Below are positions 1-26,050 of a stretch of 41,183 nucleotides of DNA, piece after piece. The notes beneath the pieces were generated by a model. It had not been told where the DNA came from, did not search any database, and saw nothing but the letters and a program-made list of their open reading frames with translations. The position numbers were made by a program, and so were the translations under genes. Position 1 is the first letter of the stretch. The number at the start of each line of letters is the position of its first letter. Location: positions 1-41,183 of the forward strand of contig JYFJ02003461.1 in assembly GCA_000934665.2 (NCBI GenBank), given 5' to 3'. This stretch comes from Catajapyx aquilonaris (Eukaryota).

Positions 1-117
1 CCCCCGGGATAAAAATATTTAGATTTTATATGGTACCACAGGGTTCATATTCGAAAATATAAACATGTGCAGCAAGGGTAGGAGGGCCTATCAAGACAGG
101 GCATATTAAGACAATTT

Positions 118-474
118 GGGGAGGTGTGGTGGCCGAGATGGTAACGTCTCGGCTTGCTGAGCGAAAGGCCCCAGGTTCGATCCCCGCCTGGGGAACTTTC
201 CTTTCACCTGCGTCAGGAGGGTCTCTGACCTGCACCAAGGAGGTGTCTGGCAACCTATAACCTCCTGGGGAACAGCACGTGACCCATAGTTACGACATTG
301 CACCTTGCACCCATGTTCCCTCACCAAAAATCCATATCCTTTCCCATTGTCCCTGTTTCCTTGCACCGGTGAATGAAGTGAAAATATATACAGAAAACTG
401 ATGGTGGTATGCCACCCCCCTATAGCTCCCGTAAGGGACATCACGGGGTAAAATAAATAAATAATAATACAAAA
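118..474 (+). mobile_element. tRNA-derived SINE, family A
   Basis: A box TGGCCGAGATGG, B box GGTTCGATCCC, A-rich tail, 13-bp TSD ATTAAGACAATTT (105-117 / 475-487). Related copies at 21313-21648 and 22855-23210. Confidence 0.9.
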
Positions 475-4227: not shown

Positions 4228-4289
4228 TTAGTTGCTGAGGTCACCCAGGTCGCTCAAGAATCCCTCTGGAGTCAGTATCTGGGTTGAAC
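4228..4289 (-). CDS. Rop: Rop last coding exon ([20 protein letters not shown])
   Basis: Acceptor tattttcag|GT, stop TAA at 4228-4230; matches the Munc18 C-terminal GSTHILTP motif. Confidence 0.93.
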
Positions 4290-7200
4290 CTGAAAATAAT
4301 GAAGAATGAAGACTCCATGATACACACTCAGGTTGGGAAACAAAGTACTGAAACCATTTCCCAAGTAATTTTAAACCATAACACCCTACTCCCAAGTTGC
4401 AATGATTCTGTGCAACAACCAAATAGACTCGCAGAGAATTTGAAAGCAGAGACACAACTATTTATGTAGAGCAGCCAATATCACTTCTAACACCTCAATC
4501 TACAGGGATGATACTCTGCTGAAGTTGACAGTCCCCCAAGTGTAGCAACATAGCAGAGTGGTGGATTTTAGCTATTCATAGAGAAATCAACGAAGTTTGC
4601 ATTCTAGCAGTTGTTCCAAGTCACTATTTCGGTCAATATAGAGCTGCCTTTACCTGTTTTCGATTTTTTAAATTGCCTGCATGACACATGAGCATGGGAA
4701 GTGGACACTTTTCACGTACAACTATTAAGAGGCTGCCCATAAAGTACATCATGATGATTTTTGGGCTCTATTTGATCTCCCCAAACCCTTATGTAACGCA
4801 CATTCACATGGGGTCACACCTCCCCTCAAAGTTGTGGACTCTCCCCAAACTTTCAGTGTTATTCCATACATAAATAAACTTCCCATTGAACTTGTGGATT
4901 AACTTTTGGGTACCTTGATGGTATTCTTGTGGAATATTGAGCTAACTACTCCTACCCTCACACCATACTGCACCAAGGTACGTAAGTCAACCACCCTCCC
5001 CTGCCCCAAGCATGACAATGTACTGATGGATGATCCCTTACAATTTAACTTGGCTAACATTAAACCACAAGTAAATGCACTGAAGATGCAGAGATTGTGA
5101 GTGTGTATGCATCTTACATGCGATTACGCATATAAGATCTCTAAATGGTGTACAGCTTGTAGCTCCAGTAGCGATATTCCTACGTTCAGGCAACTGGATG
5201 AGGGGAAAAAATGGCAGGTTTACACTGCATTATATTCTGCATGGGACTTAACCTGCTAGTAGCAGAATTTCATTTGTGAATAGTCTAACACAAAAAGTGT
5301 CCACTCCTCACATACATGTGCGTGCAGGCAAGAATAAATTTCACAAAAAAGGCACAAAACATCCACACTGACATACAGTTACCACACTTGAGGGACCGTT
5401 GACTTTGGCAGAGCAACTCCATGTAAAACAACAAGCTAATCAAGTGAAAGTTGCTGTAAAATGTAAAACTGATGCCACATAGCAGCAAGAATTGAAGGGG
5501 TCGGTGCAATACTGCCCTAACCCTCCCAAACCTGATTTTGAGAAAACTGCAGTTGAAAGTTTGAGAGGCCATATACATCCCATATACCATGACTTATTTT
5601 ATTTGATTTCTCAGTGACCGATGGCAGAAACTGCACAATTTCAATGGATTTTATTAGATACATGAGTGTAGTACATGGAAGTGTGCTTAACTCAATTTGT
5701 GTCATTTGGTGGGTTAGGGTGGTATTGCACCGACCCCTTCAATTATTATTACTAAGGAACAGATTTTTAGGTTCTAAAAGACCGTAAAAGACCCTCAAAT
5801 AGGTAGGCATTTAGGTCCTGAAAATAGTCAAAATAGGCTCTTAAATAGGCACTAAAAATCAAGCAGGTCCTAATGTTTATCTTTACCCCTATGCCTACTC
5901 TTGGCCGTGGAATTTTGTAGTACAGTAACCAACTAGCAGTGGTTCCATATTTTCGTTCTTTAATCGCAGTTCTTCGGAGACGCCTGTCTGACAATGTATC
6001 TTTATACACTGAAAATGACCTTCAATGCCACAAAGTAACTGGATCATACTTGAAAAGTGAAATGTCTTCTAAGTCAATTCATCCGGCACGCCTACAGCTT
6101 CTTGGCCCTTCGCAGGTTGAAGCGGGAGGGATGCCTTCAGCAGAAAACCCACAAAACTCTAGAAAATCTTACGGAATGGCGTCAAAGAGGTGAAAATAGG
6201 CGCTAATAGGCCATTTAGGTCTCAACACCAGAAATAGGCAATTTTAGCTTCTATATAACTACAATTTTTGAGGTCCTTGTGTTATGAAACTGATAGATAT
6301 TTTGGTTCCGGTGTTCTGCCTATAGAATAAAAAGGAGGTAAAAACCTAGAAATCCGTTCCCTATTATTATATGCACTGTTCAACAGGGAACCAAGTCATG
6401 TACAAATCCGACTTAGACGTTCTCAGGAATGTAACCCCATTCATAGACGAGGGACTTCCTGTATTTTGCAGAAAATTTTCATCTGACTTTTGTAAGGCCC
6501 TACATTTGTCCATAGGAGAATATTTCTGGACATCTGGGAGAAACTCAAAGTGACCAGAAATAATCTACATACCAAGAATAACCTCCCAGTTCTTCAGAGC
6601 ATTGGTGACTTCATATGCACACCGAATCTCAGAAAAGCAGATCCCTCCAACAACAAAGACGAGGAGCCTAGGCAAGTTCTTGAGGTTGGGCTGGCCCTTG
6701 TCCCTGTGCCACTGGCCATAGCGAGCACTGGAGGGAGCAGCCCTGTATCCTGAGGAGGCTGCTCTTCCGGCCAGGAAGGGGAAATGTTTGGCGTCCAAAC
6801 GCTCCTCTATAGTATCCTCCATCAGGTCCTTGATCACTGGGGTCCAACGACTCATCTGGTAAGTTTGTTCTGTTATGCGCTCTTTGCGGGCCACCTGGTA
6901 GATCTTGCGGCGATTACCCTGCATGTAAGAACACATATCATAAAAAACTTTCCCATTCAGCTAACTTCAAGAAAATGTGTCATTGTTAGTGTTGAACCAC
7001 TTGTGCGCAGAGAACATCTATGCATGCTGTTTATACTGAGAAACTTTACTGGATAACAAAACTGAGGAAACTTCACACTACTTCTCTGCATACGCAGATC
7101 CTGCAAAGACAGCTCATTATAAGTCAACAATAAACTTAACACTAACAAGGCAGGTGTAATTATGTGCTGATATGGCAGCAAAATTTTTTCTTATGACAGA

Positions 7201-10200
7201 CAAATATTTCTCATGCCAAGTAACAGGGTCTTTGTATGGCCCTTTTAGTCACATGCACTACAAAAGTGTTTCGAGTTTCAAATAAAATGAATTGTCAGCT
7301 GGGAGGGAACTCCCCTTGTACTCACATCAACAACAACATTGAGTCCAAGGTGTGCCATGTTTGTGATTATCTGCTTCTCTGCAGGTGGGATCTGTGCATG
7401 TTGAACTAGCTTGGTGAGGTTGTCTTCCGAGATGCCATTCTTAGAGAGGATGTAGAGAAGGATGATCCTAATCTTGTCCTTGGTGGAGACAGCCTGGTCA
7501 AGCAGCACTGGCACAATATTCCTCATGTGATCCTTGATTTTCTCTCCTTCTGCATCTGTTCCCATGGCTAGATCTTGTTCCACTTTACAGAGTTTGTCTA
7601 CATATCCTTGATAGGCCTTCATGCAGTCCTCAGCCAAATGCAAATGGGTCGAGTACTTGCTCAGCTCCTTCTGGTACTGAGGCATCTTCTTTATCATCTG
7701 GGACAGGTCCCGCATGCTTGCCTTGTCACTCGCAGGGACACGCTTTGAGTCAACAAACTTCTTGAGGTTTTTGGTAACATTCTGAGAGACCACTGCTATG
7801 TGTTGATGGCGCAGCTCCACCCACAAGTCATCATTCTCGTCCAGCAAAACTTCCTTCTCAGGAGCTCCCTGTGATGCCTCAAACTTGTACACATCATTCT
7901 CAATTGGGAGTAGGTCATATGCCATTGCCTGAAATAATTAGGAAATAAATATTAAACTGCTTCAGTACCAGGGGATAATGAGGCACTAGAGGCAGTGATT
8001 TTCATGGCTCATACCACCATAAGAATACTCCAAGTATTCCAACATTACCAGAAGACTTATGCTCTGGGTATTGGCAGTAACCCAATTGTTCAATTTTTTT
8101 TGGTGATCACAAATTTCCAAACCACAACTGGTGTCATCATTATCTTTATTGCAAATCCATTCTACCATGCATTATTCATTACTGCTAGTATGGAGATAAA
8201 AATCCTGGTCCTCATGTTTCAAGATTATGTCATGTGCCATGCAGCATAATTAAAGGAGAAAACAAGTAAATTAACATGAATTGATATTACACCTGTTCTA
8301 AAAATAACTCCATTTTTCACCCTTAAACATGCAATATTGGCTGTGTATCTTGACATCAAAAATTAAGGAACTCTCTCTGATTCGTTTGCTTTAACTCTGA
8401 TTACTTGCACCAGGTGTTACATGTATTAGTCCACACTCATTAGCTACATATCTTGATGTTTCTGAGAAATGAGCATTTACTTCTTCAGAATTACGTGCTT
8501 TGGGAAGAGAAGAAATTATAGATGACAGGTAGGAGCCTGAACCTGATGCATCCCAATGAATTACACTTCAAACCTAAACAGTATATTCATAACAAATTTC
8601 CTGTTTAAAAAAATCCAAAATCACCAAATGGAAGATGATAAATATTTTATAAAGGTATTGGAAATCAACTGCATTGTAACCACAGTAAAAGCTGCCGCAG
8701 TTCAAAACTATTTTAATGAATACAATCTCTGATCATTATTTGCCATTTTGTATCAGATTTCATAATAATGATGTTGCCTGAATAAGACTTCCAAGTGTGT
8801 ATGATCTAACCTGGAAGGTGAGTTCATGCAGCAATGGGCTGACACAATCAAAGCCACGGTCAAGGATGAGGAGCTGAGACCTGGCTTTCTCTGGTCCCTC
8901 ACCCATAGTGGGCTCATCTGCCTTGTAGGCATCCAGCTTCTGTTGGATCAGCTGGGCAAGCTCCACATTCCGCTCTGTGTCCACCCTGTACCTGACTGCT
9001 GGATACTCACCAAGTGTGGCACACAGTGTGGCTATCTGTTCAGCCATGCGCTCTAAGCTGCTTCCCTTCCCTCCCCCACCAGGTGGTCCTGCACTTCCAC
9101 CACCACCTCCTCCACCCCCTCCTGCCCCACCTCCTCCACCTGCCATCCCAGGAAGCCCACCTCCTGGAGGCCCTCCTGGAGGCCCACCTGGAGGACCCCC
9201 TCCTCCTCCACCTGCTCCATTGGCTGCTCCTGGTGCTCCAGCCCCACCAGCTCCTCCTGCACCACCACCTCCACCACCACTTAAACCATTTGGATTGTAG
9301 TACAGTTGAAATGCTGAAGGACAGTCCAGGGAGAACACCTGAAAAGCATATGGATATACTGTAAGTGTAATCATTTAAAAAATTACACGTGCTACATTGC
9401 ACTATCATTGCAGAAGTTTCAATTTTGACAGAAATATCTGTTGGAACCTCAGAATGACCATCACTGCTGTTATTGACTTCTGCAACGCACTGGCTCATAT
9501 GAGCAATGTGATCAGAAGCCCAGTATCCTGCTATCACCTCTACCACTTTTATATGTCCTTACTCAGTACTGTACGTCTCTGGTGTTTTTCCAAAACTTCC
9601 AATTTGCATGCTTTTAACATTTAAAGCCCAGTAAGTGGTTAGATGATTTTGATTTAACCCTTACATTACACACGTCCTTAAAAACAGTCACTATATAGAT
9701 TTACCCTACATTTTGCCTTTCTCTTCAAATCCAGAGTACTTTATAAACACTGAGCAACTTTAACCATTTAAAAAATTTAACACCAACAGAATTTTTCTCT
9801 ATGCTCTCAGAGGTTACCCTTTCAACTTGTAAACACACCAGCTCCATAATTCCTAAAGTGACATACATCTATTGCAATCAGTACTTCCTTGTCCATTACC
9901 CCATGCATAGGCTCCTGAGGCAACAATATAAATAACAATCCTTACAGAGCACTTCCTATAAACCTATCACATGACTGTCAGTGGAAATCACGCAAGCCAT
10001 GTCCACATATTGGCAATTTGGGCACAGGCTTCACCCACTGGGAACGAAAATATATTCACATATCAATGACTTTTCCCAGAAAACAACTGATTCTGAGTCA
10101 CACAAACTGACATCAATTGTTCAATCCAAATTTCGGAGATGCAAATGGATCAACCAGTGGGAGAAATGAATGGAGGGAGCTGGTGGGCTCCTCTGGACTG

Positions 10201-13200
10201 GGGGTATGGAGGCAACTGAAGGGAGGTGCACAGGGCTGTGCCATCTTCAAGCCGGCTTTGTAGATTGTGACTCACCAAATGGAGGTTCAACTTTACATGA
10301 GGCATGGCTCTCAGGGACAATAATTGTGTAATTACGAGTTCCCCAATGCTTATTGGAGGGTATTATGCTGGCTGGTGGGGTAATAATGGCTACTAAATCT
10401 TCCCAGCTCAGCCTGCTTGGCTGCTCCAATTCCTGATCGGATCTGCAACCAGCCACACAATGGTTTTAGCCAGCCACTGCATTGGTGGCAACAAAATAAT
10501 GACTCAGTAGTGCAAAATTGCCAATATGTAAACCCAGCTTCAACAAGTACGTAAAAGGTGCAGTGATATTGGTCTCTTCCTGCACATCATTCAATCCAAC
10601 AGAATATTAGCAAAATAAAAAATACACACTTGGTGGCCCAAGCAACACACACTGGGATACTTTTCCATAAAAATCTTGAGTCCAAATCATACCAAGAACA
10701 GCACATTCAAAGTTATAAGAACAATTGAGGGGTCTGACAAGTAAGATCAAAAACAACCAAGTCCATCAATAGGGGGGTCTAACACAAATACATGCAGCAA
10801 TATTATTATGTATTTTACTGTCACTGGGTATTAATTGCTCTGACCGTATGTAGCTGAACTGCAGCAACATATGGACGCAAAAAGTTTCAAGATGGTAGCA
10901 GTGCAAGTTAAGTAATCTTCGTTTTTGCTCATTTTATGACCAGTTTTTCCAAGTGGCCTTGGCTGTTTTTTATCTCAGACCCTTCAATTACTCTGTTTCA
11001 CATGATTTTCATAATGTGCGTTTTTGTACAGTGTATTGGCAGGAGTATAGGAGGAGGGGGAGGAGAGAGACAACAAACCACTACAGTAGCAGAGTGCACA
11101 AAACAAAGCAATTCCAGTTGTCTGTCCTGAAAATATTGAAAATGCAGAGACCTCTTCCAACCATGTTTGTCTGTTCAAGGGCACCTTATTGTGTTCAGAA
11201 ATGTCGGTTGCACTTCCTGCTTTTGATATTGAAGCAACAGCTCAAAATATAAGCTTGCTAAGACACTCTAGTGCAGCTACATGGCAGGAAATGGAACTGA
11301 TTATGTTAACATTTTAAAAAGTGCTTTTCCCACTCAGAACTGATATTTACCTGGTTACAATCCATTATTTATCACAATATGCAATATCCCAACATTGAAG
11401 CACTATTGCATGTTGCTTGGGCCGTTCCTCTGTTATACTACCAACTATGATAAATCAGTGAAAACAGCTACATGCAGGCAGGTAGGCAGGTAATAGATGG
11501 CAAGGATTATCTACAAAGACAGAGAGTAGAACCTGGCTCTCGTAGGGAAGGAAAGCAATGTTGATCTCCTTCAGGGTCTTGATCTTGCGGGCAGCAGAAG
11601 ACTTGCACACCTCATTAAACAGCTCCTCGGGGCACACTGCACATGTGTCAGAAAATGTGGGGAGGAAAGGTTATAAGAGGTCATAAATGAATATGACAGG
11701 TGAGATGAGACACAGGAAGGCAAGGAGAGGAGTAAGAGAAAAGCTGGCACAAATCACCCCAAATAAACCACACGTTAGCAGTGTACATCTACAGTTCCAT
11801 TTTCCGAGTTAGCCTGTTAGTCAGTCACTTCCACTTCAGTGGCAGCAAACAAGAGACAGGTTAGTATGTTTAGTACATGACAAAAGCACCCAAAGCACCA
11901 ATGCCACTTCAAAAACCAATTCCAAGCCTCTGTAAACCATTAAATGAATCAATTGATGCTTGTACCTTTGACTCGTAGGGGATGAAGGCAATGTTAATCT
12001 CCACTATGCTTCGGATGAACTTGGACACTCGCGCCTTGCACAGCTCCCCAAATAATGCATCAGGACAAGCTGCAAATTCCCTCTGCAGCTTTATTATTGG
12101 ATTCAATTCACACCCAACCAATCCCCTCCACTATTAACCTTATTGAAAAATATCAAAGTGTATGCCCCACATCCTCTTCCCTAAATTCCCAATTTCAGGT
12201 CTTACAAAATATCTTGCTTGTATTAATGTCATTCCAACAAATATACGGAAGCTTCATTTATTGAAAAAAGTTTTAGTTGCATGGAACACATCACATGATT
12301 GTCAAGTAATGGTAAATCCTCCAAACCCCATATCTAAGTCACCTGACAAATTTAAAACTATTAACCCAGATATGCCTGAATTATTTTTTTGTTAAATTTT
12401 TACATATTTTTCTTTTCATGAGCAAATCAAGAACAATGACTAACATAAGTGTCCTATATACAGGGTGTTTCTTACTAGTAGGCCAACCTGAAGTCAACAT
12501 ATTCCTCGTCCCAAACCAAGTCTAAAATGTAGGGGGGAGAAATGTTGAGGGAACAACGGTAACGAGGTACACAACCCACAACATTGGCCTACCCCTAAAC
12601 ACATGTGCAACACACAACACCTCTTCGTAGGGAGATCCCCTGGCAGATGGAATAGCGCCCCTTACAGTGGTTGCCTAGGGAGCAGGATATGACTGTGATA
12701 ATCACTTATGTGAAGAGGTGATCTCGCAAAATCTCAACAGTCATGATTATCACGTTCATATCCTTCTCCCTACGCAACCACAGTAAGGCGTGCATACTGA
12801 AGCAGGTTGGCATAGTGGATAAGGCGTCCGACTGCTAATCGGGAGGTCCTGGGTTCGAATCTCGGGGCCGGCAACCCTGGCCGTGGTTTTCTGTGGTTTT
12901 CCACGGTCTTCCTAGGATAATTCCGGGGTCGCTTCCGTATAATAGGCCACAGCCGCTTCCTTCCTTCCCTATCCTTGGAGGTTGAAAGGCAATGCTGGGC
13001 CAACCTCCTTAAATATCAATTATAAAGTAAGGCGTGCGAGTCCATCTACCAGGGGATCTCATTGCAAAGAGGCGTCATGTGTTGCACACATGTTTAGGGG
13101 TAGGCCAATATTTCGGGTTGTCTACCTCGTTACCGGTTGGTCCCTTGACATTTCTCCCCCTGCATTTTAGACTTGGTTTGGGCCAAGGAATATGCTGACA

Positions 13201-15250
13201 TTGGGTTGACCTACTAGTAAGAAACAGACTGTGTAGTACACCAGGCATATCTGGGTTAATGCTCTTTTCACACATTTGAAGTTGCAGACAGGGAAGAAGT
13301 GTCCACATGATCCCCACACAAATAATCCCATTATAGGTACGTCACTTGATGGTAGTAGTTTTAGAGTCACAGGTTCAGTAAACATTTATGTCTCAAATTT
13401 TGACTGTGTATGTCTCTAGAATTTCAACACCAATGTTAGACTAGACCTTTTCATTTCAAAATGCCTGCCTATAATGACTTCTGCCTTCATTTTGATCACC
13501 ATCAGCCAAAAACGATGGACAAGTGTCCTGGTTAGATATCTCATAAGGTTTGAAAAATAGCATTGATACTGATTCTGCCATACAAATATGTGTTGAAAAA
13601 CAAATGTGACAAATAATCACAATTCTGTGCTCCCAATCCTCCATTACTACCATAGTACTGTATCAAGAAAGGAAACATTCTATAATCCCATCCAAATCAA
13701 ACAGACAGGAAGTGTTGTAGGATTGGTTTCAGCTCGTACCACAAAAAAAAAACCAAAAACCCCCTGCATCCTGAAAATCTCTTGGCAAAACCACCAACTC
13801 CATCTACTGGATGCGGGGGATGTCACAACTTTTACATCTAACATTGTTGGGAATAACTTCCCGAAAAATTATTGCAAAAGGAGCCAAACTGATCCTGCAA
13901 CATATTTCCGTTGTGCAGTCACCATTGTGAAGTAGAGCATAACATAATAGCCTTAGAGCCAATATTTTGAGGCAGTCCTGACTCATTGTCACATTTTAAT
14001 CCCACCCCATATTCTGCCATCCCAAGGTAAATCACCCTAACTGCAAAACTAGTAAGGGTGAAATTCGCATGCATGCCCTGCCCTAATCCCCCCCTGACTC
14101 AGAGGGGATTAGTGCAGGACATGCGCACAACCTTCACCCTTACTAGTTTTGCAGTTAGGGTGTTTTACCTTGGGACGGCAGATATGGGCTTTTACAAAGT
14201 TGATACAAGTTCAACTTCATCTGCACGTAATGAGAAATATAAATTTCTGAGAAAAGCCAAGGTGATGCAAATGCATATTGCTCTTATTTGCTTTTCACAC
14301 ACCAGTAAGGACCTAAATTTCCTACATTACTTTCACACTGAATGTATGCGAGTTAACATTAATGTAATGAACTCACCCTCAGTGAAGTAGACGTGTGCCG
14401 CCTTGTATGACGTGCGGTTTGGTGAGTAGAAGTCATTGACAAGTGCTTTGACTGATTTTTCTGAAGGGGTGATGAGGTACACAGCCTCAATGGTGGAAAG
14501 AGGCTCCCTTTTCTTGCTAATGTCCTCTACTAGGGTAATCCCCTCAGCTGAAATCTCGTGCATTTTGCAGCAAGCTGACACCATGCGCATTGCCAATTGG
14601 TCCACCACCAATACACGCCAGTCCATCGCCTGACCTTTTTTCTTCGTACGGATTACCTCATTCATGATCTCTGTAACAAGACAGGATGATTACCAGGCAT
14701 ACTTGAGTACACAAATGCTGGGTTCACAGTGACAACCAACAATAGGATTGTTTCCACTGTTCAGGGAGCATGTTCCTGGGAATGTGATTGAGCAGTCAGA
14801 ACAGTTATGCCCAAGTCAGTTCACCTGAGTAACCTGAAGAGCTGGGCAGCTCACCCTCCCTGTCTTTGGCATGGGGTGAGAGAGAGAGGCAAGGCAGTTG
14901 GGATTAGGGCTGGGTTACTTCCCCCAACTGACACGAGTATTTTTGATCATGAATAGAGCCTCATACAACAAGTATGGCAGTGAAAAGGGTGAAGCACTTG
15001 CAATTTTTAAAAACCAACTAAAATTGCTACCTGGGGCCCACCACCACACCAACTCCTGAGGTGGTGTGTTGTGGGGAGAGTGGAGATGAAAAGGTTGGAA
15101 TGGATACTCTTGCCTGGGTAAAGAAAGCTGCATGAACAGTGGGAACATGGGTTAATGCATCAAAAAAACTCTTAAGCTTAATTTAAATTATTAACCTTTC
15201 TTATGTAGCATACCCACTGAATCGGCAAATAACATCTCTTGACGCGAATC

Positions 15251-15333
<83 letters not shown>

Positions 15334-18300
15334 CAGGTAGTGCTTGACCTCTTTACAAGGTATGTAGCACGGACCTTTATTAACCTTTTGTGTCAATCTG
15401 TACATTTGGAACCCTTTACAAAGTGCACCCAAGTCGAAGCCAGAGATGACCCCAAACTCTGCACGAGATGGAGGAGGGAAATGCCCGAGCCTGGGACCAT
15501 TATTTTGTGAGCGCGTATGTTACCTCAGTGCCACTCCGCCTCCCTAACATGAGTCGATTATACAGGGTGTAAATGAATTCAATCGACAAACTTGTAGGGG
15601 TAATAGAGGGGACCAAGACAAGTATTTTTGACATAGGAATCCGTGTCCAGAAACGCCATCTAGAGGGGGTTCATAGACAAGGAACGGGTGCACTCAGACG
15701 CTCCACGCGGGAGGCGCTAGGCGAGCGGACCGTTTTGTTGATAGATGGCGCTCGGATAGTAAACATAGGTGAGATGTGCCATAACCTGGCAACAACAGAG
15801 CCATCTAGCAACTAAAGTACGCCTCCTAGGAGACGCGTGGAGAGTAAACAAAGGTTCTGTTGTTGTCATGTTATGGCGTATCACGTCGTTGTTTGCTTAC
15901 GATGACGCGATATGCCATAACCTGGCAACAACTGCGCATCCTCTATCAACAAAACAGTCCGCTTGCCTAGCTCCTCTCGCCTGACGCGTCTGAGCGCACC
16001 CGTTCCTTGTCTATGAACCCCCTCTAGATGGCGTTTCCGGACACGGGTTCCTATGTCAAAAATACTTGTCTTGGTCCCCTCTATTACCCCTACAAGTTTG
16101 TCGATTGAATTCATTTACACCCTGTATTCCTCAGTGTTTACAACTGCAGCATCTGTTTCGCTCAATAATTTCTTCATACCAAACTATGTATTTTTAACCA
16201 GACATTCCAATAGTCACATTAGCAGGCTCTTGAAAACATTGGCTTCTAATATCAAGTTGAAAAAAAGCATTTATTCAGGTGCTGAATCGTAATGAATTTC
16301 TGAGTTTATGACACTGAAAGTCATGTGTTTTGACCCATTTGCATCGCAGTCAAGGGCTGAACCCATTTTTCTGCAGGTTAGCCCCTCCACATTGCTTTAA
16401 AAAAATACATATCTATTCCATATAATAATAGCAGCCAATACTTATGTTCCTAAAAGTAAGTCCTTAAAATTAACTGTTCAATAAGGTGCTTAGGATGAAA
16501 AAAAAACTAACTGAAGTGGGCACCTCAATTGGAGCACACCATAGGCCCTACATGATTTCAGAATACCTGCCCATGTGCAAATAGCACAGCAGCTGCACCC
16601 CATTCTCTGCCCAGGGCCAGAAGAAAAGGTCTCGCATAAGGACTGTCCAAAATGACTAGAAACTATAACAGCGCCCTCCCTTGGGAACCTCCCCCCTCCC
16701 CAAGCGCCTATGAATCAAGGTGTTGCAGCAGAACAAGCTCCTCTGGATGAGTTAATGTATGCATTTAAATGAAGATCCATGCTATACCTCATGTGAGGTC
16801 CGCACTACCCAATAGTACAGCAGCAGAATGGGAAACAAGACACTGACAACAATACCTTTCAACAATCAAAATAACAATAAATAACTAGCTACACATCAGT
16901 ACCCAAGTTCATTACTAAGTCTATAAAATCCTCCTGAATAGATAAAAATTTCCTGCCCAAATTTTGCAATTTCACTGTCACAGCAGAACTACTGTCACAA
17001 CAGAACTACTGTCACAACAGAACTACTGCCAGGACAATTTCACACCAAACCCAGTTGCTGCTTGAAAAAAGGTAATGTACAGGTAGGAAAGTGCTCCATA
17101 AGGGAAGTGAAAAACAGAAATACCTTTTCATACAGATCTCATAATAATTATGGACCTCTCAAAAATTTGATTGCGATCCAAACAAGTATTCTTTTCAAAA
17201 TGAACTTTACTGAATATGAAGGTCTTGATGCTACTGAGAGGTTAATGACATGCTAAGATTACATCACAAGCTGATATAAAATATTTTGCACAACCACAGA
17301 TAAGAATGAATACCCCATATCTGATCAGCACTGACAATTCGTAGGACAAATTACACCTCCCCAAAAAGTTTCTCAATATCCTATTCCATATACCCCTCTG
17401 AGATATTTCAGTAGGGTCCTAATTCTGTGACATCTAATTTAATCTGGGCACAAGAAGGTTCTGGCCACTCTGGCTCTCCTCAGTTCAGGTCAAGATGAGG
17501 GTGGTAGGGTAAGGAAAGAGATGCCACTCATTGTTTACCCCAGCAACTAATTCAAACTTGCATCGACAATTCCTGCAAAGTTAATATGGCCCTCATCACT
17601 AATTACAATCAATCACCTCTCTTCTAACTAGATGCTGGAGTAAACAATCCAGCAAAATTCTCCTCTTCTTTCCCTAGTACATCATCTTCAACTGGGGACT
17701 TGGACAATGCAACCCTCTTGTCCATTTCCTGCAGCCAGCAACTCGCATGCCCACAGGGATGTTGTGGTTGGGGCGGACGCATGAACCAATCCGAACCATT
17801 CTTTCCACTGCATCTGGGTCCAGAAGGAATTCACAGATCGGCAGTCAGCCACCCGAACCACAACATGCCTGTGGGGCCCTGCCAGCACCAAATTCCAGGC
17901 TGGGGGAGACTTTTATATTCAACAACCATCACCATAAGGCTAGATAGAGAGTTGCAGGGGGCTGCCTGCAGCAATAACATCAACCATAGCAACAAGGCAT
18001 GATGCCGCATTTCAAGTAACTTGTGGGGATCATATTTATGTATTATTTAGGCCTTTTAGGGCATATAATAGTATTATGTTTACCTTAAATTATGTGTATA
18101 GTGCAGAAAACTAAACAACGATCTGATGTCATCATCACACAACAATATGAGTAAACCGTGTCAACAAAAAGAACATTGTTTACTCCTATTGTTGCATGAG
18201 AACAAAATGATTACTTCAGACCGTTTGTTTTCCGCACAGTATTTGCTGTGTAAGTTAATAAAAGTAGGCATTGTTTAGGATCTGGAAAAGGATTAATTCA

Positions 18301-19231
18301 CTTTCCATTACACCTTATGTGGAAAATTGATTCGGACTTCTAACAATTCAGTGTTCGAATGGTCTCCTGGAATAAATTAAATTCAAAGTACAAGGCACCA
18401 CTCTACTACCTTATTATGCAATTATGTTAGGTTATGTTCCAAATACTGTATTACAATTTTTGGAAGTAGCAGCAGTTATTCCATACTGTAATACATTAAT
18501 TAAACACAAAGCTCCCAATTGAGCATTTATCTCATGACACTATCCCACCATGACTCCCTAAGCATGCCTGATCTTGTATCACAAACACTGGCATTCCCAC
18601 TGATAACAAATCAGGTAAACTGGAAATTGTGCATGATGCTCTGAATCTGTTTGCTTAGTGAGACAATTATATGCTTGGGTTTTCAGGGTCAAGGTTAAAC
18701 TAATAACCATGGGTGGAATGTTTGTCCCGCTGCTAGTTATTGCTAACTTAGCAGTACCAGTGTTGGCAATGGTACTGCTGAGTTAGCAGTAACTAGCAGT
18801 GGGACAGAAATTCTACCCATGTCTGGTACATGCTAAATACAACATTGTTGACATCCAAATTGTCACCTCCTAATAAACGCCCAAGTCACATATTTTTAAA
18901 GAACTCTCAGCTGCAGATCTGGTACCGGTACCCATAAGATTTAGAAGCCACCCAACACAGGGAAACTGACAATGTGTTACATCCCATGGAGTAACTTCAT
19001 CGTGCAATCTGCTGGGACAAGATATGCTGCGGCCAACATGGCATGACATCCCACCCTTATGCTCGGCACAGATGTCATTTATTACTCCACATTGCATACC
19101 ATGCTGTGCAATGCTGATCAAGTAGTACTCATAAGGCTAGGCCTGACTTTCCTGCCCCACCCTTCTTCCTTCTGTATGAAGAAGGCTGAAGTAATGAACT
19201 CACTCTGCCCAACCAAGGCCTTCAACGCCAT
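4228..19231 (-). CDS. Rop: Rop / Munc18-1 / unc-18 (syntaxin-binding protein, Sec1/Munc18 family), spliced CDS of 654 aa: 19204-19231, 14377-14670, (11966-12069 or 11533-11636), 8811-9338, 7326-7928, 6573-6918, 4228-4289
   Basis: All junctions are GT-AG and phase-compatible (28+294+104+528+603+346+62=1965 nt). The translation has Munc18 hallmarks: [26 protein letters not shown], EINIAFx[90 protein letters not shown]. Confidence 0.97.
5494..5740. mobile_element. MITE with 4-bp AATT TSD (Sola1-like)
   Basis: TIR GAAGGGGTCGGTGCAATAC..CCCTAACCC with AATT on both sides. Superfamily inferred from the AWWT TSD. Confidence 0.8.
5753..6363 (-). mobile_element. Internally deleted hAT-like transposon with a decayed transposase C-terminus
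   Basis: TIR TA(A/G)GGAAC(A/G)GATTT(T/C)TAGGTT. Minus strand ~5915-6042 reads [28 protein letters not shown] across frameshifts, like a hAT dimerisation region. Confidence 0.7.
6573..6918 (-). CDS. Rop: Rop coding exon 6
   Basis: Acceptor tacatgcag|GGT, donor G|GTATGT, 346 nt; GNRRKIY...[11 protein letters not shown]...NWEVIL. Confidence 0.96.
7326..7928 (-). CDS. Rop: Rop coding exon 5 (domain 3)
   Basis: Acceptor tatttcag|GCA, donor GAT|GTGAGT, 603 nt; [15 protein letters not shown]...HLGLNVVVD. Confidence 0.96.
8811..9338 (-). CDS. Rop: Rop coding exon 4 (domain 2, contains the Gly/Pro-rich insertion)
   Basis: Acceptor cttttcag|GTG, donor CAG|GTTAGA, 528 nt; VFSLDC...[24 protein letters not shown]...LLHELTFQ. 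Confidence 0.94.
9057..9290 (-). repeat. Coding Gly/Pro/Ala low-complexity tract (GGN/CCN codons; PPGG x3)
   Basis: In frame within Rop exon 4. Confidence 0.9.
11533..11636 (-). CDS. Rop: Rop alternative exon 3B (mutually exclusive): (V)[34 protein letters not shown]
   Basis: Long pyrimidine tract then gtgcag|TG, donor CAG|GTTCTA, 104 nt, phase 1 to phase 0. Confidence 0.93.
11966..12069 (-). CDS. Rop: Rop alternative exon 3A (mutually exclusive): (A)[34 protein letters not shown]
   Basis: Acceptor tttgcag|CT, donor AAG|GTACAA, 104 nt, phase 1 to phase 0, no stops; homologous to exon 3B. Confidence 0.88.
12461..13231. mobile_element. Tc1/mariner-type foldback MITE
   Basis: TA|CAGGGTGTTTCTTACTAGTAGG ... 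CCTACTAGTAAGAAACAGACTG; the inverted arms extend ~240 bp. Confidence 0.8.
12794..13025 (+). mobile_element. tRNA-derived SINE, family C
   Basis: A box TGGCATAGTGG, B box GGTTCGAATC, 12-bp TSD AGTAAGGCGTGC (12782-12793 / 13026-13037), 3' hairpin GGAGGTTG...CAACCTCC. Confidence 0.88.
14006..14188. mobile_element. ~180-bp palindromic MITE
   Basis: CCCATATTCTGCCATCCCAAGGTAAA...TTTTACCTTGGGACGGCAGATATGGG; self-complementary over almost its whole length. Confidence 0.75.
14377..14670 (-). CDS. Rop: Rop coding exon 2 (domain 1)
   Basis: Acceptor ttgttacag|AG, donor G|GTGAGT, 294 nt; [11 protein letters not shown]...AAHVYFTE. Confidence 0.96.
15251..15544 (-). mobile_element. tRNA-derived SINE, family B, with an expanded (ATT)n tail (15251-15332)
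   Basis: Shares CATCTCGTGCAGAGT..GGGTCATCTCTGGCTTC with the copies at 32660 and 38339; internally shortened. Confidence 0.78.
15563..16124. mobile_element. Tc1/mariner-type MITE with long TIRs
   Basis: TA|CAGGGTGTAAATGAATTCAATCGACAAAC...GTTTGTCGATTGAATTCATTTACACCCTG|TA. Confidence 0.92.
16974..17028 (+). repeat. 17-bp tandem repeat, about 3 copies
   Basis: ACTGTCACA(A/G)CAGAACT repeated. Confidence 0.8.
18708..18821. mobile_element. Short palindromic MITE (related copies near 1150-1230 and 32617-33094)
   Basis: CATGGGTGGAAT..GTCCCGCTGCTAGTTA.TGCTAAC mirrored by GTTAGCAGTAACTAGCAGTGGGAC..ATTCTACCCATG. Confidence 0.7.
19204..19231 (-). CDS. Rop: Rop coding exon 1 (MALKALVGQ + phase 1)
   Basis: ACAATG start, 28 nt, donor A|GTGAGT. 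Joins the next exon to give ...VGQKIMNEV, matching the Rop-type N-terminus. Confidence 0.92.
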
Positions 19232-21044: not shown

Positions 21045-21734
21045 CAGTAGAACCCTGATTATCTGTCACCCACGGGATCAGGGCATGGTCAGACAACAAA
21101 AATGGTTGGATAATCCGAAGAGCAAAGGAAACTTTAATGAACACAACAAAAAACATATGAAAAAATGTACAATGTCATGGTTTTCTAAGAAATAGTGAAG
21201 TACCAGTATTTATCTTTTACATACACACTCTACTGTTTAAAATTTAACGAAGGCCATTCAAACCAAATGCTTATAAGGCCTACGCTACAGCATTTGATTA
21301 GAAAACATAGATAATAATAATTGTGGGTAATGCTTTCACCCCCAACCGGGGGTATATCGCATGAACCTTTATTTATTTTGTTCAAGTTTCTCAACTCAAC
21401 TTCGGTGCAAGGAATCAAGGAAATTGGGTAAGGATAGGGATTTTTGGGGAGGGAACATGGGTGCAAGTGCAATGTCTGAAAATGGGTCATGTGCTGTTCC
21501 CCAGGAGGTTAGGTTGCCAGACACCTCCAAGGTGCAGGTCAGAGACCCTCCTGACGCAGGTGAAAGGAAACTCCTCAGGCGGGGATCGAACCTGGGGCCT
21601 TTCACACAGCAAGCCGAGATGTTACCATCTCGGCTACCACACCTCCCCGAAAACATTGATTTATTGCTGGAGCGGGATGGCCGGATAAACCGAGGAGTCA
21701 GATAAGCCAAGGTCGGATAATCATGGTTCTACTG
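21045..21734. mobile_element. pogo/Tigger-like MITE hosting a SINE
   Basis: TA|CAGTAGAACC..GATTATC ... GATAATCATGGTTCTACTG|TA. Confidence 0.8.
21313..21648 (-). mobile_element. tRNA-derived SINE: family A head and body with a family B-type 3' tail
   Basis: Reverse complement of the 118 copy over head and body; TSD GAAAACAT(A/T)GAT (21301-21312 / 21649-21660); (ATT)n tail. Confidence 0.85.
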
Positions 21735-22399: not shown

Positions 22400-22850
22400 A
22401 GGTGGGTCAGTGTCTTAAAGGTGTTGCTAGTGTTAAGCCGAGACGTTCATGTGTCAATAGGACCATGGACGTGGCTGGCGCTAAGGTTGTTTGTTTGGAT
22501 AGGTGTAAATGGCGTAGGTTAATGGGTAGAATATTCACGGATTTGTGAGGAATGGCAGTGTCCATTGAATTCTTCAGAATGGGTAGAATGTTTGCAGGTT
22601 GGTGGGAGGAGGTCGGCGTCTGGAAGTTCATACTCGGGCTCTGGGTGCTGTGCAGAACTACAAGTTTGGCAAATATCTCTTGCACAGTAATGCATAGGTA
22701 GACACTGGTAGTCATGCTGCCTCTCTCTCTGTCCTGCACAGCACTTGGAGTTCGGGTGTGGATTTCTGTATGCTGGTTCTTCTCGCTGGCCTGTGGGTGT
22801 TCTGGTCGTTTGGAGGAGAATATTCTTGTCACTTGGAGGAATTTAACAGT
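22400..22850 (-). mobile_element. Possible decayed LINE 3' fragment
   Basis: A/C-rich minus strand with a broken ORF; no diagnostic motif confirmed. Confidence 0.3.
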
Positions 22851-22854
22851 TCCT

Positions 22855-23210
22855 GGGGAGGTGTGGTGGCCGTGATGGTAACGTCACGGCTTGCTGAGTG
22901 AAAGGCCCCAGGTTCGATCCCCGCCTGGGGAACTTTCCTTTCACCTGTGTCGGGAGGGTCTCTGACCTGCACCAAGGAGGTGTCTGGCAACGTAACCTCC
23001 TCGGGGACAGCACATGACCCATTTGTAGACATTGCACTTGCACCTATGTTCCCTCCCCAAAAAATCCCTACCCCTACCCGACATCCTTGACTCCTTGCAC
23101 CGGTGAATGAAGAAAAAAGTGTAAAACACACAGAGAAAACTAATGGTGGTGTGCCACCCCCCAAAGAGGCCTTTGATGCCTAGCACGGGGTATTTAAAAA
23201 AAAAAAAAAA
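22855..23210 (+). mobile_element. tRNA-derived SINE, family A
   Basis: A and B boxes, poly(A) tail, TSD TTAACAGTTCCT (22843-22854 / 23211-23222). Confidence 0.9.
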
Positions 23211-25182: not shown

Positions 25183-25563
25183 AGAACGGAAACCCAAACA
25201 TTCCTCAATAACTTTTTAACTATGGTATGGTTCCCGATGAAAATTGACATGTGCTTACCTTGTATCATGCCAAACAAGGTCTGACTACAGAATATACCAA
25301 AAGTGGTCCCTTCCAGCATCCAAGAATTTTTTTAAATGCGAGTCTGCATATTGCCGAAGACTCCTGCAGATGTGGACACCAGCGGCGTAGCCAGGAAATT
25401 TGTAAGGGGGGGGGTTATGTGAGGGAAGAACGAAGAGGCCCGCCACAGGCGAAATTTTTTTAAGCTGTTCAAGCTCACACAAGCTACAGTATTTGCGCAT
25501 GTGCGTTTTAACACCTTAAAATTACAGATTGGAACTATATTTTTTGGGTCCAGGTGGGGGGAC

Positions 25564-25595
<32 letters not shown>

Positions 25596-26050
25596 NCCCC
25601 CCCCCCGCCTACGCCACTGGTGGACACTGACTTGGCGGGAGTGAAACACCTGCTTGGCGAGAGGGCATCTCAAGGCCACGGGAACAGTCCAATTCGTTTT
25701 GTGGTATGATGGGTTGTTTTTTTTTTTTCTCACGGAGTTTGTTGAAGGGCTGTGTATACAAAAATAACCCTCGAACAATAATATTGATGCTCTCAAAGAC
25801 ACCTTACAGCACGCAGCGGGTGGGAGATTGATGCCATCTGCGCCGCCACATCTGAAGGAGTCTTCGGCAATATGCAGACTCTCATTTAAAAATTCTTGGA
25901 TGCTGGAGGGGACCACTTTTTGTATATTCTTTAGTCACACCTTGTTTGGCATGATACAAGGTAAGTACATGTCAATTTTCATCAGGAACCATACCATCCT
26001 GAAAAAGTTATTGAGGAATGTTTGGGTTTCCATTCGGGAGAATCATCCTG
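25183..26050. mobile_element. Tc1/mariner-type MITE with ~190-bp inverted arms (left tip eroded)
   Basis: 25188-25375 is the reverse complement of 25846-26031; right end ATCATCCTG|TA. Confidence 0.8.
25380..25619. mobile_element. hAT-type MITE nested in the previous element (contains a poly-C tract with an N)
   Basis: CAGCGGCGTAG...CTACGCCACTG with 8-bp TSD GTGGACAC. Confidence 0.88.

What the first reader, a model, noticed from the sequence alone, without database searches (positions are those of the whole stretch)
11533..12069. Mutually exclusive duplicated exons swap the syntaxin N-peptide pocket of Rop/Munc18
Seen: two homologous exons, each exactly 104 nt and phase 1->0, separated by a 329-nt intron. 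3A reads (A)[34 protein letters not shown]; 3B reads (V)[34 protein letters not shown]. Including both gives a TGA at the 22nd codon read into 3B, and skipping both shifts the frame, so only either/or yields protein. Established (recalled): this segment aligns to Munc18-1 residues ~109-143, which include F115, L130 and E132 of the N-peptide-binding pocket, and corresponds to the 104-nt exon 6 of human STXBP1; vertebrate Munc18-1 splices at the C-terminus instead. F and E are kept in both copies, but neighbours differ (KTLKE vs RSIVE; AARK vs VSKF). Inference: a single gene produces two SM proteins with different syntaxin affinity or specificity, perhaps replacing the Munc18-1/-2/-3 paralogue split. 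Similar isoforms may already be auto-annotated in other insects.
Basis: partly seen in the sequence, partly recalled or inferred. Interest (0 to 1): 0.82.

Follow-up and report, generated by a model that had tools for sequence, protein, structure and literature searches.

The report
Alternative exon pair in insect Rop
An insect gene for the vesicle-fusion protein Rop/Munc18 carries two interchangeable copies of one small exon; the same pair exists in many insect orders and is already in automatic genome annotations, but my literature searches found no study of it.

Summary
On the minus strand lie two homologous 104-nt exons, 3A (12069-11966) and 3B (11636-11533). Both have AG/GT borders, and a 329-nt intron separates them. 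They sit inside a complete seven-exon Sec1/Munc18 (Rop) gene. Using either exon alone keeps the frame open. Using both gives a TGA, and using neither shifts the frame. Both exons align to Munc18-1 residues 110-143.

The pair is not peculiar to this genome. Named insect proteins fall into two classes for this segment. The B class is nearly invariant and includes 3B. The A class evolves faster and includes 3A. Thirty species of seven orders show both classes, either as same-length isoforms or as read-through models. A always comes before B. Five independent metagenomic DNA arrangements show the same tandem layout. Intron-free Rop ORFs on short contigs, which I take to be mRNA copies, carry either class.

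The "pocket swap" reading is only partly supported. F115 and E132 are kept in both classes, and the class differences lie mainly at positions 112-126 and 138-142.

This window's 3A is the most divergent A exon examined (RSIV in place of KTLK, a purine-rich acceptor). No RNA data could be obtained, so its use in this species is unproven.

Verdict: a new member of a known kind; moderate interest.

The parts
19204..19231 (-). Rop coding exon 1 (ATG at 19231; MALKALVGQ plus 1 base; donor GTGAGT)
   Evidence: pattern search of the translated minus strand
14377..14670 (-). Rop exon 2 (294 nt; ends with one base of a split codon)
   Evidence: 85% identity to Schistocerca Rop residues 10-108; Pfam Sec1 profile positions 2-76
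11966..12069 (-). Alternative exon 3A (A class): 104 nt, purine-rich acceptor, donor GTACAA
11637..11965 (-). 329-nt intron between 3A and 3B
   Evidence: no conserved element found
11533..11636 (-). Alternative exon 3B (B class): 104 nt, pyrimidine-rich acceptor, donor GTTCTA
   Evidence: Pfam Sec1 profile positions 79-113
8811..9338 (-). Rop exon 4, including an in-frame Gly/Pro-rich stretch at 9287-9063 that the relatives compared lack
7326..7928 (-). Rop exon 5 (201 codons)
   Evidence: Pfam Sec1 E 8e-44, profile positions 226-419
6573..6918 (-). Rop exon 6
   Evidence: Pfam Sec1 profile positions 450-561
4228..4289 (-). Rop last coding exon (…[22 protein letters not shown])

Best explanation
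The region is the alternative exon pair of an insect Rop (Munc18-1 orthologue) gene. An old tandem duplication of the 104-nt exon that encodes residues 110-143 of domain 1 left two copies. A spliced mRNA must contain exactly one of them. Because 104 is not a multiple of three, transcripts with both or with neither are frame-shifted and end early; I infer they would be removed by nonsense-mediated decay.

The downstream copy (B, here 3B) is close to the ancestral sequence and almost frozen across insects. The upstream copy (A, here 3A) evolves several times faster. Both copies keep the core residues F115 and E132 of the syntaxin N-peptide site. They differ along residues 112-126 and 138-142.

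My inference is that choosing the exon retunes the surface next to the N-peptide site, and so the binding of a syntaxin or another domain-1 partner. It does not replace the pocket itself.

Shown: the gene model, the frame logic, the membership of 3A and 3B in the two conserved classes, and the presence of both classes in mRNA-like contigs and annotated isoforms of other insects.

Inferred: that this species uses 3A, that the choice is regulated by tissue, and that the two proteins differ in partner binding.
For: 1. Anatomy and frames. All exons match Pfam Sec1 in profile order. The best named relatives are insect 'protein ROP' (975 proteins at E<=1e-10 among 1059 candidates, best 120 listed, top identity 86%).
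2. Two classes of the segment.
3. Both classes in the same species for 30 species of 7 orders (Hemiptera, Thysanoptera, Neuroptera, Ephemeroptera, Hymenoptera, Lepidoptera, Coleoptera), either as equal-length X1/X2 isoforms or as read-through models (some orders checked, the rest from my own knowledge).
4. In all 10 read-through models A precedes B.
5. DNA-level tandem pairs with 104-nt exons and AG/GT borders in L001/L002, L007, L008/L009 and L013.
6. Tree (80 rows): 3B lies in a 40-row B clade (support 97/87). 3A lies in a 27-row A set (96/89), nearest to the orthopteran Anabrus.
7. Rate asymmetry, taking one species per order: mean pairwise identity is 61.9% for A and 92.3% for B, and A is lower in 21 of 21 pairs.
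8. mRNA-level use in other insects: of 11 unnamed near-full-length ORFs (574-593 aa) on contigs of 1844-5002 nt, 8 carry A and 3 carry B. An uninterrupted ORF on so short a contig should be a spliced copy.
9. 3A keeps the A-class hallmarks (Ala from the split codon, D112, V123, aromatic 126, I138). Its replacements relative to other A exons are more conservative than random nonsynonymous changes: mean BLOSUM62 +0.58 against -0.43, reached by 85 of 5000 resamplings against Anabrus. This is a rough test.
10. F115E/E132A abolish N-peptide binding (passages).
Against: - There is no RNA evidence for this species, so inclusion of 3A here is unproven.
- 3A is the most divergent A exon in the set. Its end branch is 1.2 changes per column against a median of 0.11. 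Its profile score is 59.6, against 72.5-83.5 for four other A exons and 53.8 for L013. It has no Pfam hit, while 3B has a weak one.
- 3A carries R-S-I-V at positions 128-131 and K at 143. Among 42 unique non-B segments, K131 is in 42, T129 and L130 in 40 each, K128 in 35 and Q143 in 41.
- The 3A acceptor is purine-rich (pyrimidine fraction 0.32, against 0.59-0.64 for four other A exons) and has further AG dinucleotides just upstream.
- The isoform names in other species are automatic predictions that I could not check against reads.
- The functional claim (altered partner binding) rests on position alone. The structure model was too poor in domain 1 to map surfaces.
- The 3A-seeded protein search found no close relative of this particular 3A (5 hits among 9 candidates, best 66% identity).
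Confidence: 0.72

Rival explanations
1. In this lineage 3A is a decaying or nearly silent relic of the insect A exon. 3B is in effect constitutive, and only one Rop protein is made.
For: 3A has the longest end branch in the tree. It has four changes in the otherwise near-invariant KTLK stretch plus Q143K. Its profile score is second-lowest of the A exons scored, after L013 at 53.8. It has a purine-rich acceptor with upstream AGs. Some hexapod genes lack an A exon altogether. Collembolan-like genomic loci L016, L019 and L025 leave only 92-99 nt between exon 2 and the B-like exon. L010 has none. The listed Diptera show only B.
Against: The 104-nt length, the AG and GT borders and the open frame are all intact. 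The A hallmarks are kept, and three of the four KTLK changes are conservative (K>R, T>S, L>I). The replacements are more conservative than random. Equally or more divergent A exons (mayflies, L013) have intact borders or are annotated as isoforms. An open frame over 34 codons is weak evidence by itself.
Confidence: 0.2
2. Both exons are used, but the switch has nothing to do with syntaxin N-peptide binding. It might tune folding or stability of domain 1, or contact with another partner. Alternatively it is an old, near-neutral subfunctionalisation of expression: two splice-regulated copies doing the same biochemical job in different cells.
For: F115 and E132 are invariant in both classes, and K128-K131 nearly so. 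The A class tolerates many different residues at 116-126. The literature read here calls the importance of N-peptide binding disputed (passages in PMC13452794 and PMC4750926).
Against: The B copy is held at about 92% identity across orders, and A keeps class-specific residues (V123, an aromatic at 126, I138) for as long. This points to distinct constraints on each copy. The variable positions lie in the same 34-residue segment as F115 and E132.
Confidence: 0.3
3. The pair acts mainly as a quantity control. Joint inclusion or joint skipping yields frame-shifted transcripts that are destroyed, so splicing sets the Rop level rather than the Rop type.
For: Both aberrant patterns give premature stops.
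Against: Both exons are conserved as protein sequence in seven orders. A pure 'poison' role would not preserve that. No data on aberrant transcripts were available.
Confidence: 0.05

Closest known systems
Automatically annotated 'protein ROP isoform X1/X2' pairs of other insects (e.g. Apis florea, Thrips palmi, Chrysoperla carnea, Leptinotarsa decemlineata, Neocloeon triangulifer)
   Same: Same gene, same 34-residue segment, same two classes, same order (A upstream of B), equal isoform lengths.
   Different: This genome's A exon is the most divergent one apart from those of the mayflies and L013 (RSIV for KTLK, K for Q143), and its acceptor is weak. Those records are predictions, and none is described in a paper found by my searches.
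Mutually exclusive tandem-duplicated exons in general (SNAP-25 exons 5a/5b in the same fusion machinery; homologous exon substitution events surveyed in PMC4465641 and PMC9741552)
   Same: Adjacent homologous exons of equal length and phase, with one chosen per transcript, old and conserved. SNAP-25a/b is named in the search listing. The general properties come from the abstracts listed.
   Different: Different gene. The SNAP-25 comparison is from my own knowledge and from a title and abstract only. No regulatory mechanism is known for Rop.
Vertebrate Munc18-1a/b splice variants and the Munc18-1/-2/-3 paralogues
   Same: Both are ways of diversifying the plasma-membrane SM protein.
   Different: The vertebrate variants differ at the C-terminus (abstract of PMC4583478), not in domain 1. 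The paralogues are separate genes. Whether the insect A and B forms divide the same labour is untested.
Insect exon clusters controlled by competing RNA pairings (docking site and selector, as in Dscam1, 14-3-3 and Mhc) or by steric hindrance
   Same: Mutually exclusive choice among tandem exons.
   Different: No conserved intronic element and no convincing docking/selector pairing was found. The 329-nt intron is too long for steric hindrance. Here the frame rule alone enforces exclusivity, as far as shown.

Membership tests
Sec1/Munc18 family (Pfam PF00995), Rop/Munc18-1 orthologue | Sec1 profile match along the protein | tested here: met
   exon 2 (69.5 bits, profile 2-76), exon 4 (73.5, 144-225), exon 5 (151.2, 226-419) and exon 6 (65.6, 450-561) are all above the 30.7-bit cut-off. 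3B gives 16.3 bits (79-113), below the cut-off. 3A gives no hit.
Sec1/Munc18 family (Pfam PF00995), Rop/Munc18-1 orthologue | Closest named relatives are Rop/STXBP1 rather than Vps45, Sly1 or Vps33 | tested here: met
   the named rows of the best 120 are almost all 'protein ROP' or syntaxin-binding protein; the best solved structures are squid Sec1 and syntaxin-binding proteins 1, 2 and 3.
Mutually exclusive tandem-duplicated exon pair | Two adjacent homologous exons of equal length and phase with canonical splice sites | tested here: met
   104 nt each, AG/GT borders, 61 of 104 nt identical.
Mutually exclusive tandem-duplicated exon pair | Only single inclusion keeps the reading frame | tested here: met
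Mutually exclusive tandem-duplicated exon pair | Transcripts of this organism contain one exon or the other, never both or neither | not testable with these tools
   No RNA run was listed and no genome is held. In other insects, intron-free ORFs on short contigs (taken to be mRNA copies) carry A (8) or B (3).
Mutually exclusive tandem-duplicated exon pair | Both copies conserved in other species | tested here: met
   30 species of 7 orders. DNA pairs.
Insect Rop A-class exon (for 3A) | Class hallmarks: Ala from the split codon, D112, V123, aromatic or His at 126, I/V138; lies upstream of B | tested here: met
   3A has A, D, V, F and I. One search places it in a 27-row A set (support 96/89).
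Insect Rop A-class exon (for 3A) | K128-T129-L130-K131 and Q143, nearly invariant in both classes | tested here: not met
   3A has R, S, I, V and K at these positions. V131 occurs in 0 of 65 unique segments.
Insect Rop B-class exon (for 3B) | Val from the split codon, E112, E113, N116, K120, A123, K126, L138 | tested here: met
   all present. 3B is 29-33 of 34 identical to B exons of other orders and lies in the B clade (97/87).
Exon choice by docking-site/selector RNA pairing | Conserved intronic complementary elements | tested here: inconclusive
   no intronic 10-mer is shared by the window and at least two of L002, L007 and L008; the strong inverted repeats are transposon-like, and the arm at the 3A donor is only 72% complementary.
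Exon choice by steric hindrance | Intron between the two exons too short to be spliced | tested here: not met
   329 nt here. By contrast, 35-37 nt in the unrelated pair of L027/L029.

The most novel reading that the evidence does not exclude
The A/B switch is an ancient device, present at least since the common ancestor of winged insects. Shared derived residues in Collembola suggest it may be older and was later lost there. It lets one SM gene make two proteins. The frozen B form resembles Munc18-1. The fast-evolving A form has a remodelled surface beside the syntaxin N-peptide site and serves another syntaxin or another kind of secretion. In this lineage the A form has gone furthest, rebuilding the 128-131 rim next to E132. 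Only B-class entries were listed for Diptera. I recall, but did not check, that Drosophila makes a single Rop form. If so, the standard model insect would have hidden this layer of regulation.
Probability: 0.3. Interest if true: 0.65.

Novelty: new member of a known kind. Interest (0 to 1): 0.45.

Why it matters
Rop/Munc18 is essential for all regulated and constitutive exocytosis. The role of its syntaxin N-peptide site is still argued over (passages in PMC13452794 and PMC4750926). Most insects appear to carry a natural either/or pair of this very segment. One copy is frozen and the other is free to change. That offers a ready-made experiment: compare the A and B proteins of one species, or delete one exon. 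It would show what the region around F115/E132 contributes in vivo, and whether insects split neuronal and general secretion by splicing where vertebrates use paralogues. For this particular window the finding mainly improves annotation. It also flags an unusually divergent A exon.

Tried and rejected
- RNA evidence: no RNA holder was listed for window:7278-14700. The single search was thereby used, so read laying could not be run.
- Own genome: none is held, so paralogues could not be counted.
- A protein search seeded with 3A plus six flanking codons found 5 proteins among 9 candidates. All were ordinary A-class exons at 62-66% identity, and none was a close relative of this 3A.
- Earlier findings of this scan: nothing by place, by words or by sequence.
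- Structure: an AlphaFold2 model of Anabrus Rop from a 120-row alignment had pLDDT below 50 over residues 1-84 and 96-144 (mean 61.7). I did not use it to map the variable positions, and no fold search was run.
- Conserved intronic elements: no intronic 10-mer is shared by the window and at least two of L002, L007 and L008.
- Inverted repeats in the 5-kb interval are dominated by transposon-like arms. I drew no docking/selector model from them.
- Steric hindrance was rejected because the intron is 329 nt long.
- A third copy of the exon in the window was rejected.
- Assembly duplication was rejected because the copies differ at 43 of 104 nt.
- Papers on the N-peptide pocket by PMC id (PMC2323264, PMC3024693, PMC6254354) are not held. 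L130 as a pocket residue therefore stays unverified, and a search for L130K found no paper with that term.
- Literature on a Rop exon pair: searches found no paper describing it. The Artemia paper (PMC8465105) only lists 'Protein ROP-like isoform 1' with 7 isoforms in a table.
- Supplements were not consulted. Lists of predicted mutually exclusive exons in supplements could hold this gene.
Full report
**What is in the sequence**

On the minus strand, 12069-11966 (3A) and 11636-11533 (3B) are two 104-nt segments. Each is preceded by AG and followed by GT, and a 329-nt intron separates them. They share 61 of 104 bases and 18 of 34 codons.

They belong to a complete gene:
- exon 1: 19231-19204
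- exon 2: 14670-14377
- exon 3A or 3B
- exon 4: 9338-8811
- exon 5: 7928-7326
- exon 6: 6918-6573
- last coding exon: 4289-4228

With one of the two alternative exons the coding sequence is 1965 nt. Every sizeable exon matches Pfam Sec1 in the right profile order. The best named relatives are insect 'protein ROP'.

With 3A alone or 3B alone the frame stays open. With both, a TGA is reached at the 22nd codon read into 3B. With neither, the frame shifts and stops 99 codons after exon 2. Both peptides align over their whole length with Munc18-1 residues 110-143 and squid Sec1 107-140. A profile of the segment finds no third copy in the window.

**The pair is old and widespread**

I searched with exon 2, which is neutral with respect to 3A and 3B. 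This returned 975 proteins at E<=1e-10, of which the best 120 were listed. All were insects apart from one scorpion model and some unnamed rows. The top identity was 86%, to Schistocerca.

In these proteins the 34-residue segment falls into two classes.
- **B class.** It follows a Val from the split codon and reads C[PQG]EELFNELCKS..A[KR][17 protein letters not shown]. Window 3B matches B exons of other orders at 29-33 of 34 positions.
- **A class.** It follows an Ala, usually has D112, V123, an aromatic or His at 126, I or V at 138 and E/Q at 142, and is much more variable. Window 3A has the A hallmarks.

A second search added beetles, flies, a flea, springtails, Daphnia and a horseshoe crab.

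In all, 30 species of seven orders show both classes in the same species. The orders are Hemiptera, Thysanoptera, Neuroptera, Ephemeroptera, Hymenoptera, Lepidoptera and Coleoptera. Some show them as equal-length X1/X2 isoforms, others as gene models that read through the intron and hold both. In all 10 read-through models A comes first.

A and B also occur in different species of Orthoptera, Blattodea and Psocodea. A flea transcript has A. I checked the orders by taxonomy look-up for five species and assigned the others from my own knowledge.

**Independent DNA and RNA evidence from other organisms**

A scan of metagenome contigs gave 79 loci. Of these, 78 hold the segment, and 68 of 85 segments have AG and GT at exactly the same borders. 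The 104-nt exon is therefore old.

Tandem A-then-B pairs lie on single contigs in four kinds of locus:

| Locus | Intron between A and B | Resembles |
|---|---|---|
| L001/L002 | 320 nt | Hymenoptera (identical to ant and wasp sequences) |
| L007 | 4065 nt | cockroach or termite |
| L008/L009 | 830 nt | — |
| L013 | about 107 nt | very divergent A exon |

Among the unnamed proteins, eleven ORFs of 574-593 residues sit on contigs of only 1844-5002 nt. They should be spliced copies. Eight carry A and three carry B. Both forms therefore reach mature mRNA in other insects, and A is not a rare by-product there.

**Evolution of the two copies**

In a maximum-likelihood tree of 80 segments, the B exons form a clade of 40 rows (support 97/87) that holds 3B on a very short branch (0.05). 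3A sits in a supported set of 27 A exons (96/89), nearest to the katydid Anabrus. The columns are few, and the tool itself warns that many forks cannot be resolved.

Taking one species per order, mean pairwise identity is 92.3% for B and 61.9% for A. A is lower in 21 of 21 pairs.

Outgroups with a single exon (horseshoe crab, scorpion, Daphnia, many marine contigs) follow an Ala and end in AFLPYESQ. B thus keeps the ancestral C-terminal half, while A keeps the ancestral Ala and the aromatic residue at 126.

Springtails have only a B-like exon, with Val, E112 and R126. Collembolan-like genomic loci leave just 92-99 nt between exon 2 and that exon, so no A exon fits there. Springtails share B's derived states. 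I therefore infer, weakly, that the duplication predates the split of springtails and insects and that A was lost in springtails. The alternative, a later duplication followed by reversal in A, is not excluded.

The three Diptera listed show only B. I recall, but did not test, that Drosophila has a single Rop form.

**What the switch changes**

Mutating F115 and E132 of Munc18-1 abolishes binding of the syntaxin N-peptide (passages in PMC13452794 and PMC3204075). [quoted passage not shown] The importance of this binding mode is disputed.

Both residues lie in the alternative segment, but they are invariant in both classes. K128, T129, L130 and K131 are invariant or nearly so in B. In A they are nearly so: 35, 40, 40 and 42 of 42 unique non-B segments. 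That set still held at least four B-like sequences that failed my strict rule.

The class-specific differences lie at 112, 113, 116, 117, 120-124, 126, 138, 139 and 142. The conserved positions 114, 115, 118 and 119 alternate with variable ones in an i, i+1, i+4, i+5 pattern. This suggests the variable residues form the exposed face of a helix. That is an inference from periodicity only, because the structure model was too poor in domain 1 to test it.

My reading is that the exon choice retunes the surroundings of the N-peptide site rather than swapping the pocket. This is inferred and not shown.

**How this window differs**

3A is the outlier of the A class:
- It reads R-S-I-V at 128-131 and K at 143. 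V131 occurs in none of the 65 unique segments.
- It has the longest end branch of the tree, 1.2 against a median of 0.11.
- Its profile score is second-lowest of the A exons scored, 59.6; only L013 is lower, at 53.8.
- Its acceptor is purine-rich (pyrimidine fraction 0.32 against 0.59-0.64 in four other A exons) and has AG dinucleotides just upstream.

These points fit a relic exon. Against that reading:
- The length, the borders and the frame are intact.
- The A hallmarks are kept.
- Three of the four KTLK changes are conservative (K>R, T>S, L>I).
- The set of replacements is more conservative than random nonsynonymous changes (85 of 5000 resamplings reach the observed mean against Anabrus). 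This is a rough test, confounded by changes on the reference lineage.
- A exons of other lineages also vary at 128-130: thrips, Chrysoperla, Bemisia, mayflies and L013.

I put the chance that 3A is used in this species at about 0.7-0.8.

**How exclusivity is kept**

The only mechanism shown is the frame rule. The intron is too long for steric hindrance. No intronic 10-mer is shared by the window and at least two of three other A-B loci. The strong inverted repeats between exon 2 and exon 4 look like transposons. The A donors are GTA-type, and three of five B donors are GTT-type. Here the A acceptor is the weak site. Such a balance of weak sites is usual for regulated exons, but that is only a remark.

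**Novelty**

Six literature searches found no paper that describes alternative exons in Rop or in the domain 1 of any Munc18. I consulted no supplements. The finding is thus a new member of a known kind. It is an unstudied but already recorded exon pair, seen here in an unusually divergent state.

Noticed in passing
window 9063-9287 (-), inside Rop exon 4: An in-frame Gly/Pro-rich stretch of about 75 codons (GGGGGGAGGAGG…[12 protein letters not shown]…) replaces about 6 residues of the loop that follows 'YNPN' in other insect Rop proteins. The other two frames are also open, and there is no RNA evidence. Whether it is coding, or partly an unusual intron, is open.
   Followed up: partly
L027:585-829 and L029:960-1202: An independent tandem duplication of the same 104-nt exon in an unidentified animal. 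The two copies differ by two residues, and the intron between them is only 35-37 nt, too short to be spliced. That would enforce mutual exclusion sterically. L029 also holds two copies of the preceding exon (29-190 and 241-396).
   Followed up: partly
L013:263-368 and 476-579: An AT-rich insect-like locus with an A-B pair whose A exon has lost C110 and P111 (reads VRDELFEKLKQHQNVVKFIKTCKE…) yet keeps its AG/GT borders. A exons can evidently drift far.
   Followed up: partly
L016, L019, L025 (collembolan-like); L010: Genomic Rop loci with only 92-99 nt between exon 2 and a B-like exon, so there is no A exon. L010 resembles mayfly Rop but has no A exon between exon 2 and exon 4, although the two mayflies annotated by NCBI have one.
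   Followed up: partly
window 12360-12704 / 13027-13260, and 14013-14182: Large inverted repeats (arms of 19-109 nt, 83-100% complementary) in the intron upstream of 3A, and a 79-nt hairpin close to the exon 2 donor. They are probably foldback or MITE-type transposons. Related sequence recurs near 15540-16200.
   Followed up: no
window 26-289, 21331-21705, 22829-23179: A repeated element whose translations share strings such as VQVRDPPDAGERK…GIEPGAF. It looks like a SINE-type repeat present in both orientations.
   Followed up: no
window about 15250-15350: A long trinucleotide (ATA/ATT-type) microsatellite that reads as poly-Ile, poly-Leu or poly-Tyr in different frames.
   Followed up: no
window about 25500-25600: At least one N in the sequence (an X in the translation of ORF 25332-25934), next to a poly-Gly-coding run.
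   Followed up: no
P0006 (Centruroides sculpturatus 'protein ROP-like isoform X1', 681 aa): This model contains the exon 2 peptide twice in a row, identical. It is probably an assembly or annotation artefact. It inflated this protein's score.
   Followed up: no
P0128 and P0129 (Allacma fusca): Two different Rop proteins from one springtail species (85% and 77% identical to the L011 ORF), both with the B-like segment. This may be a gene duplication rather than an exon duplication.
   Followed up: no
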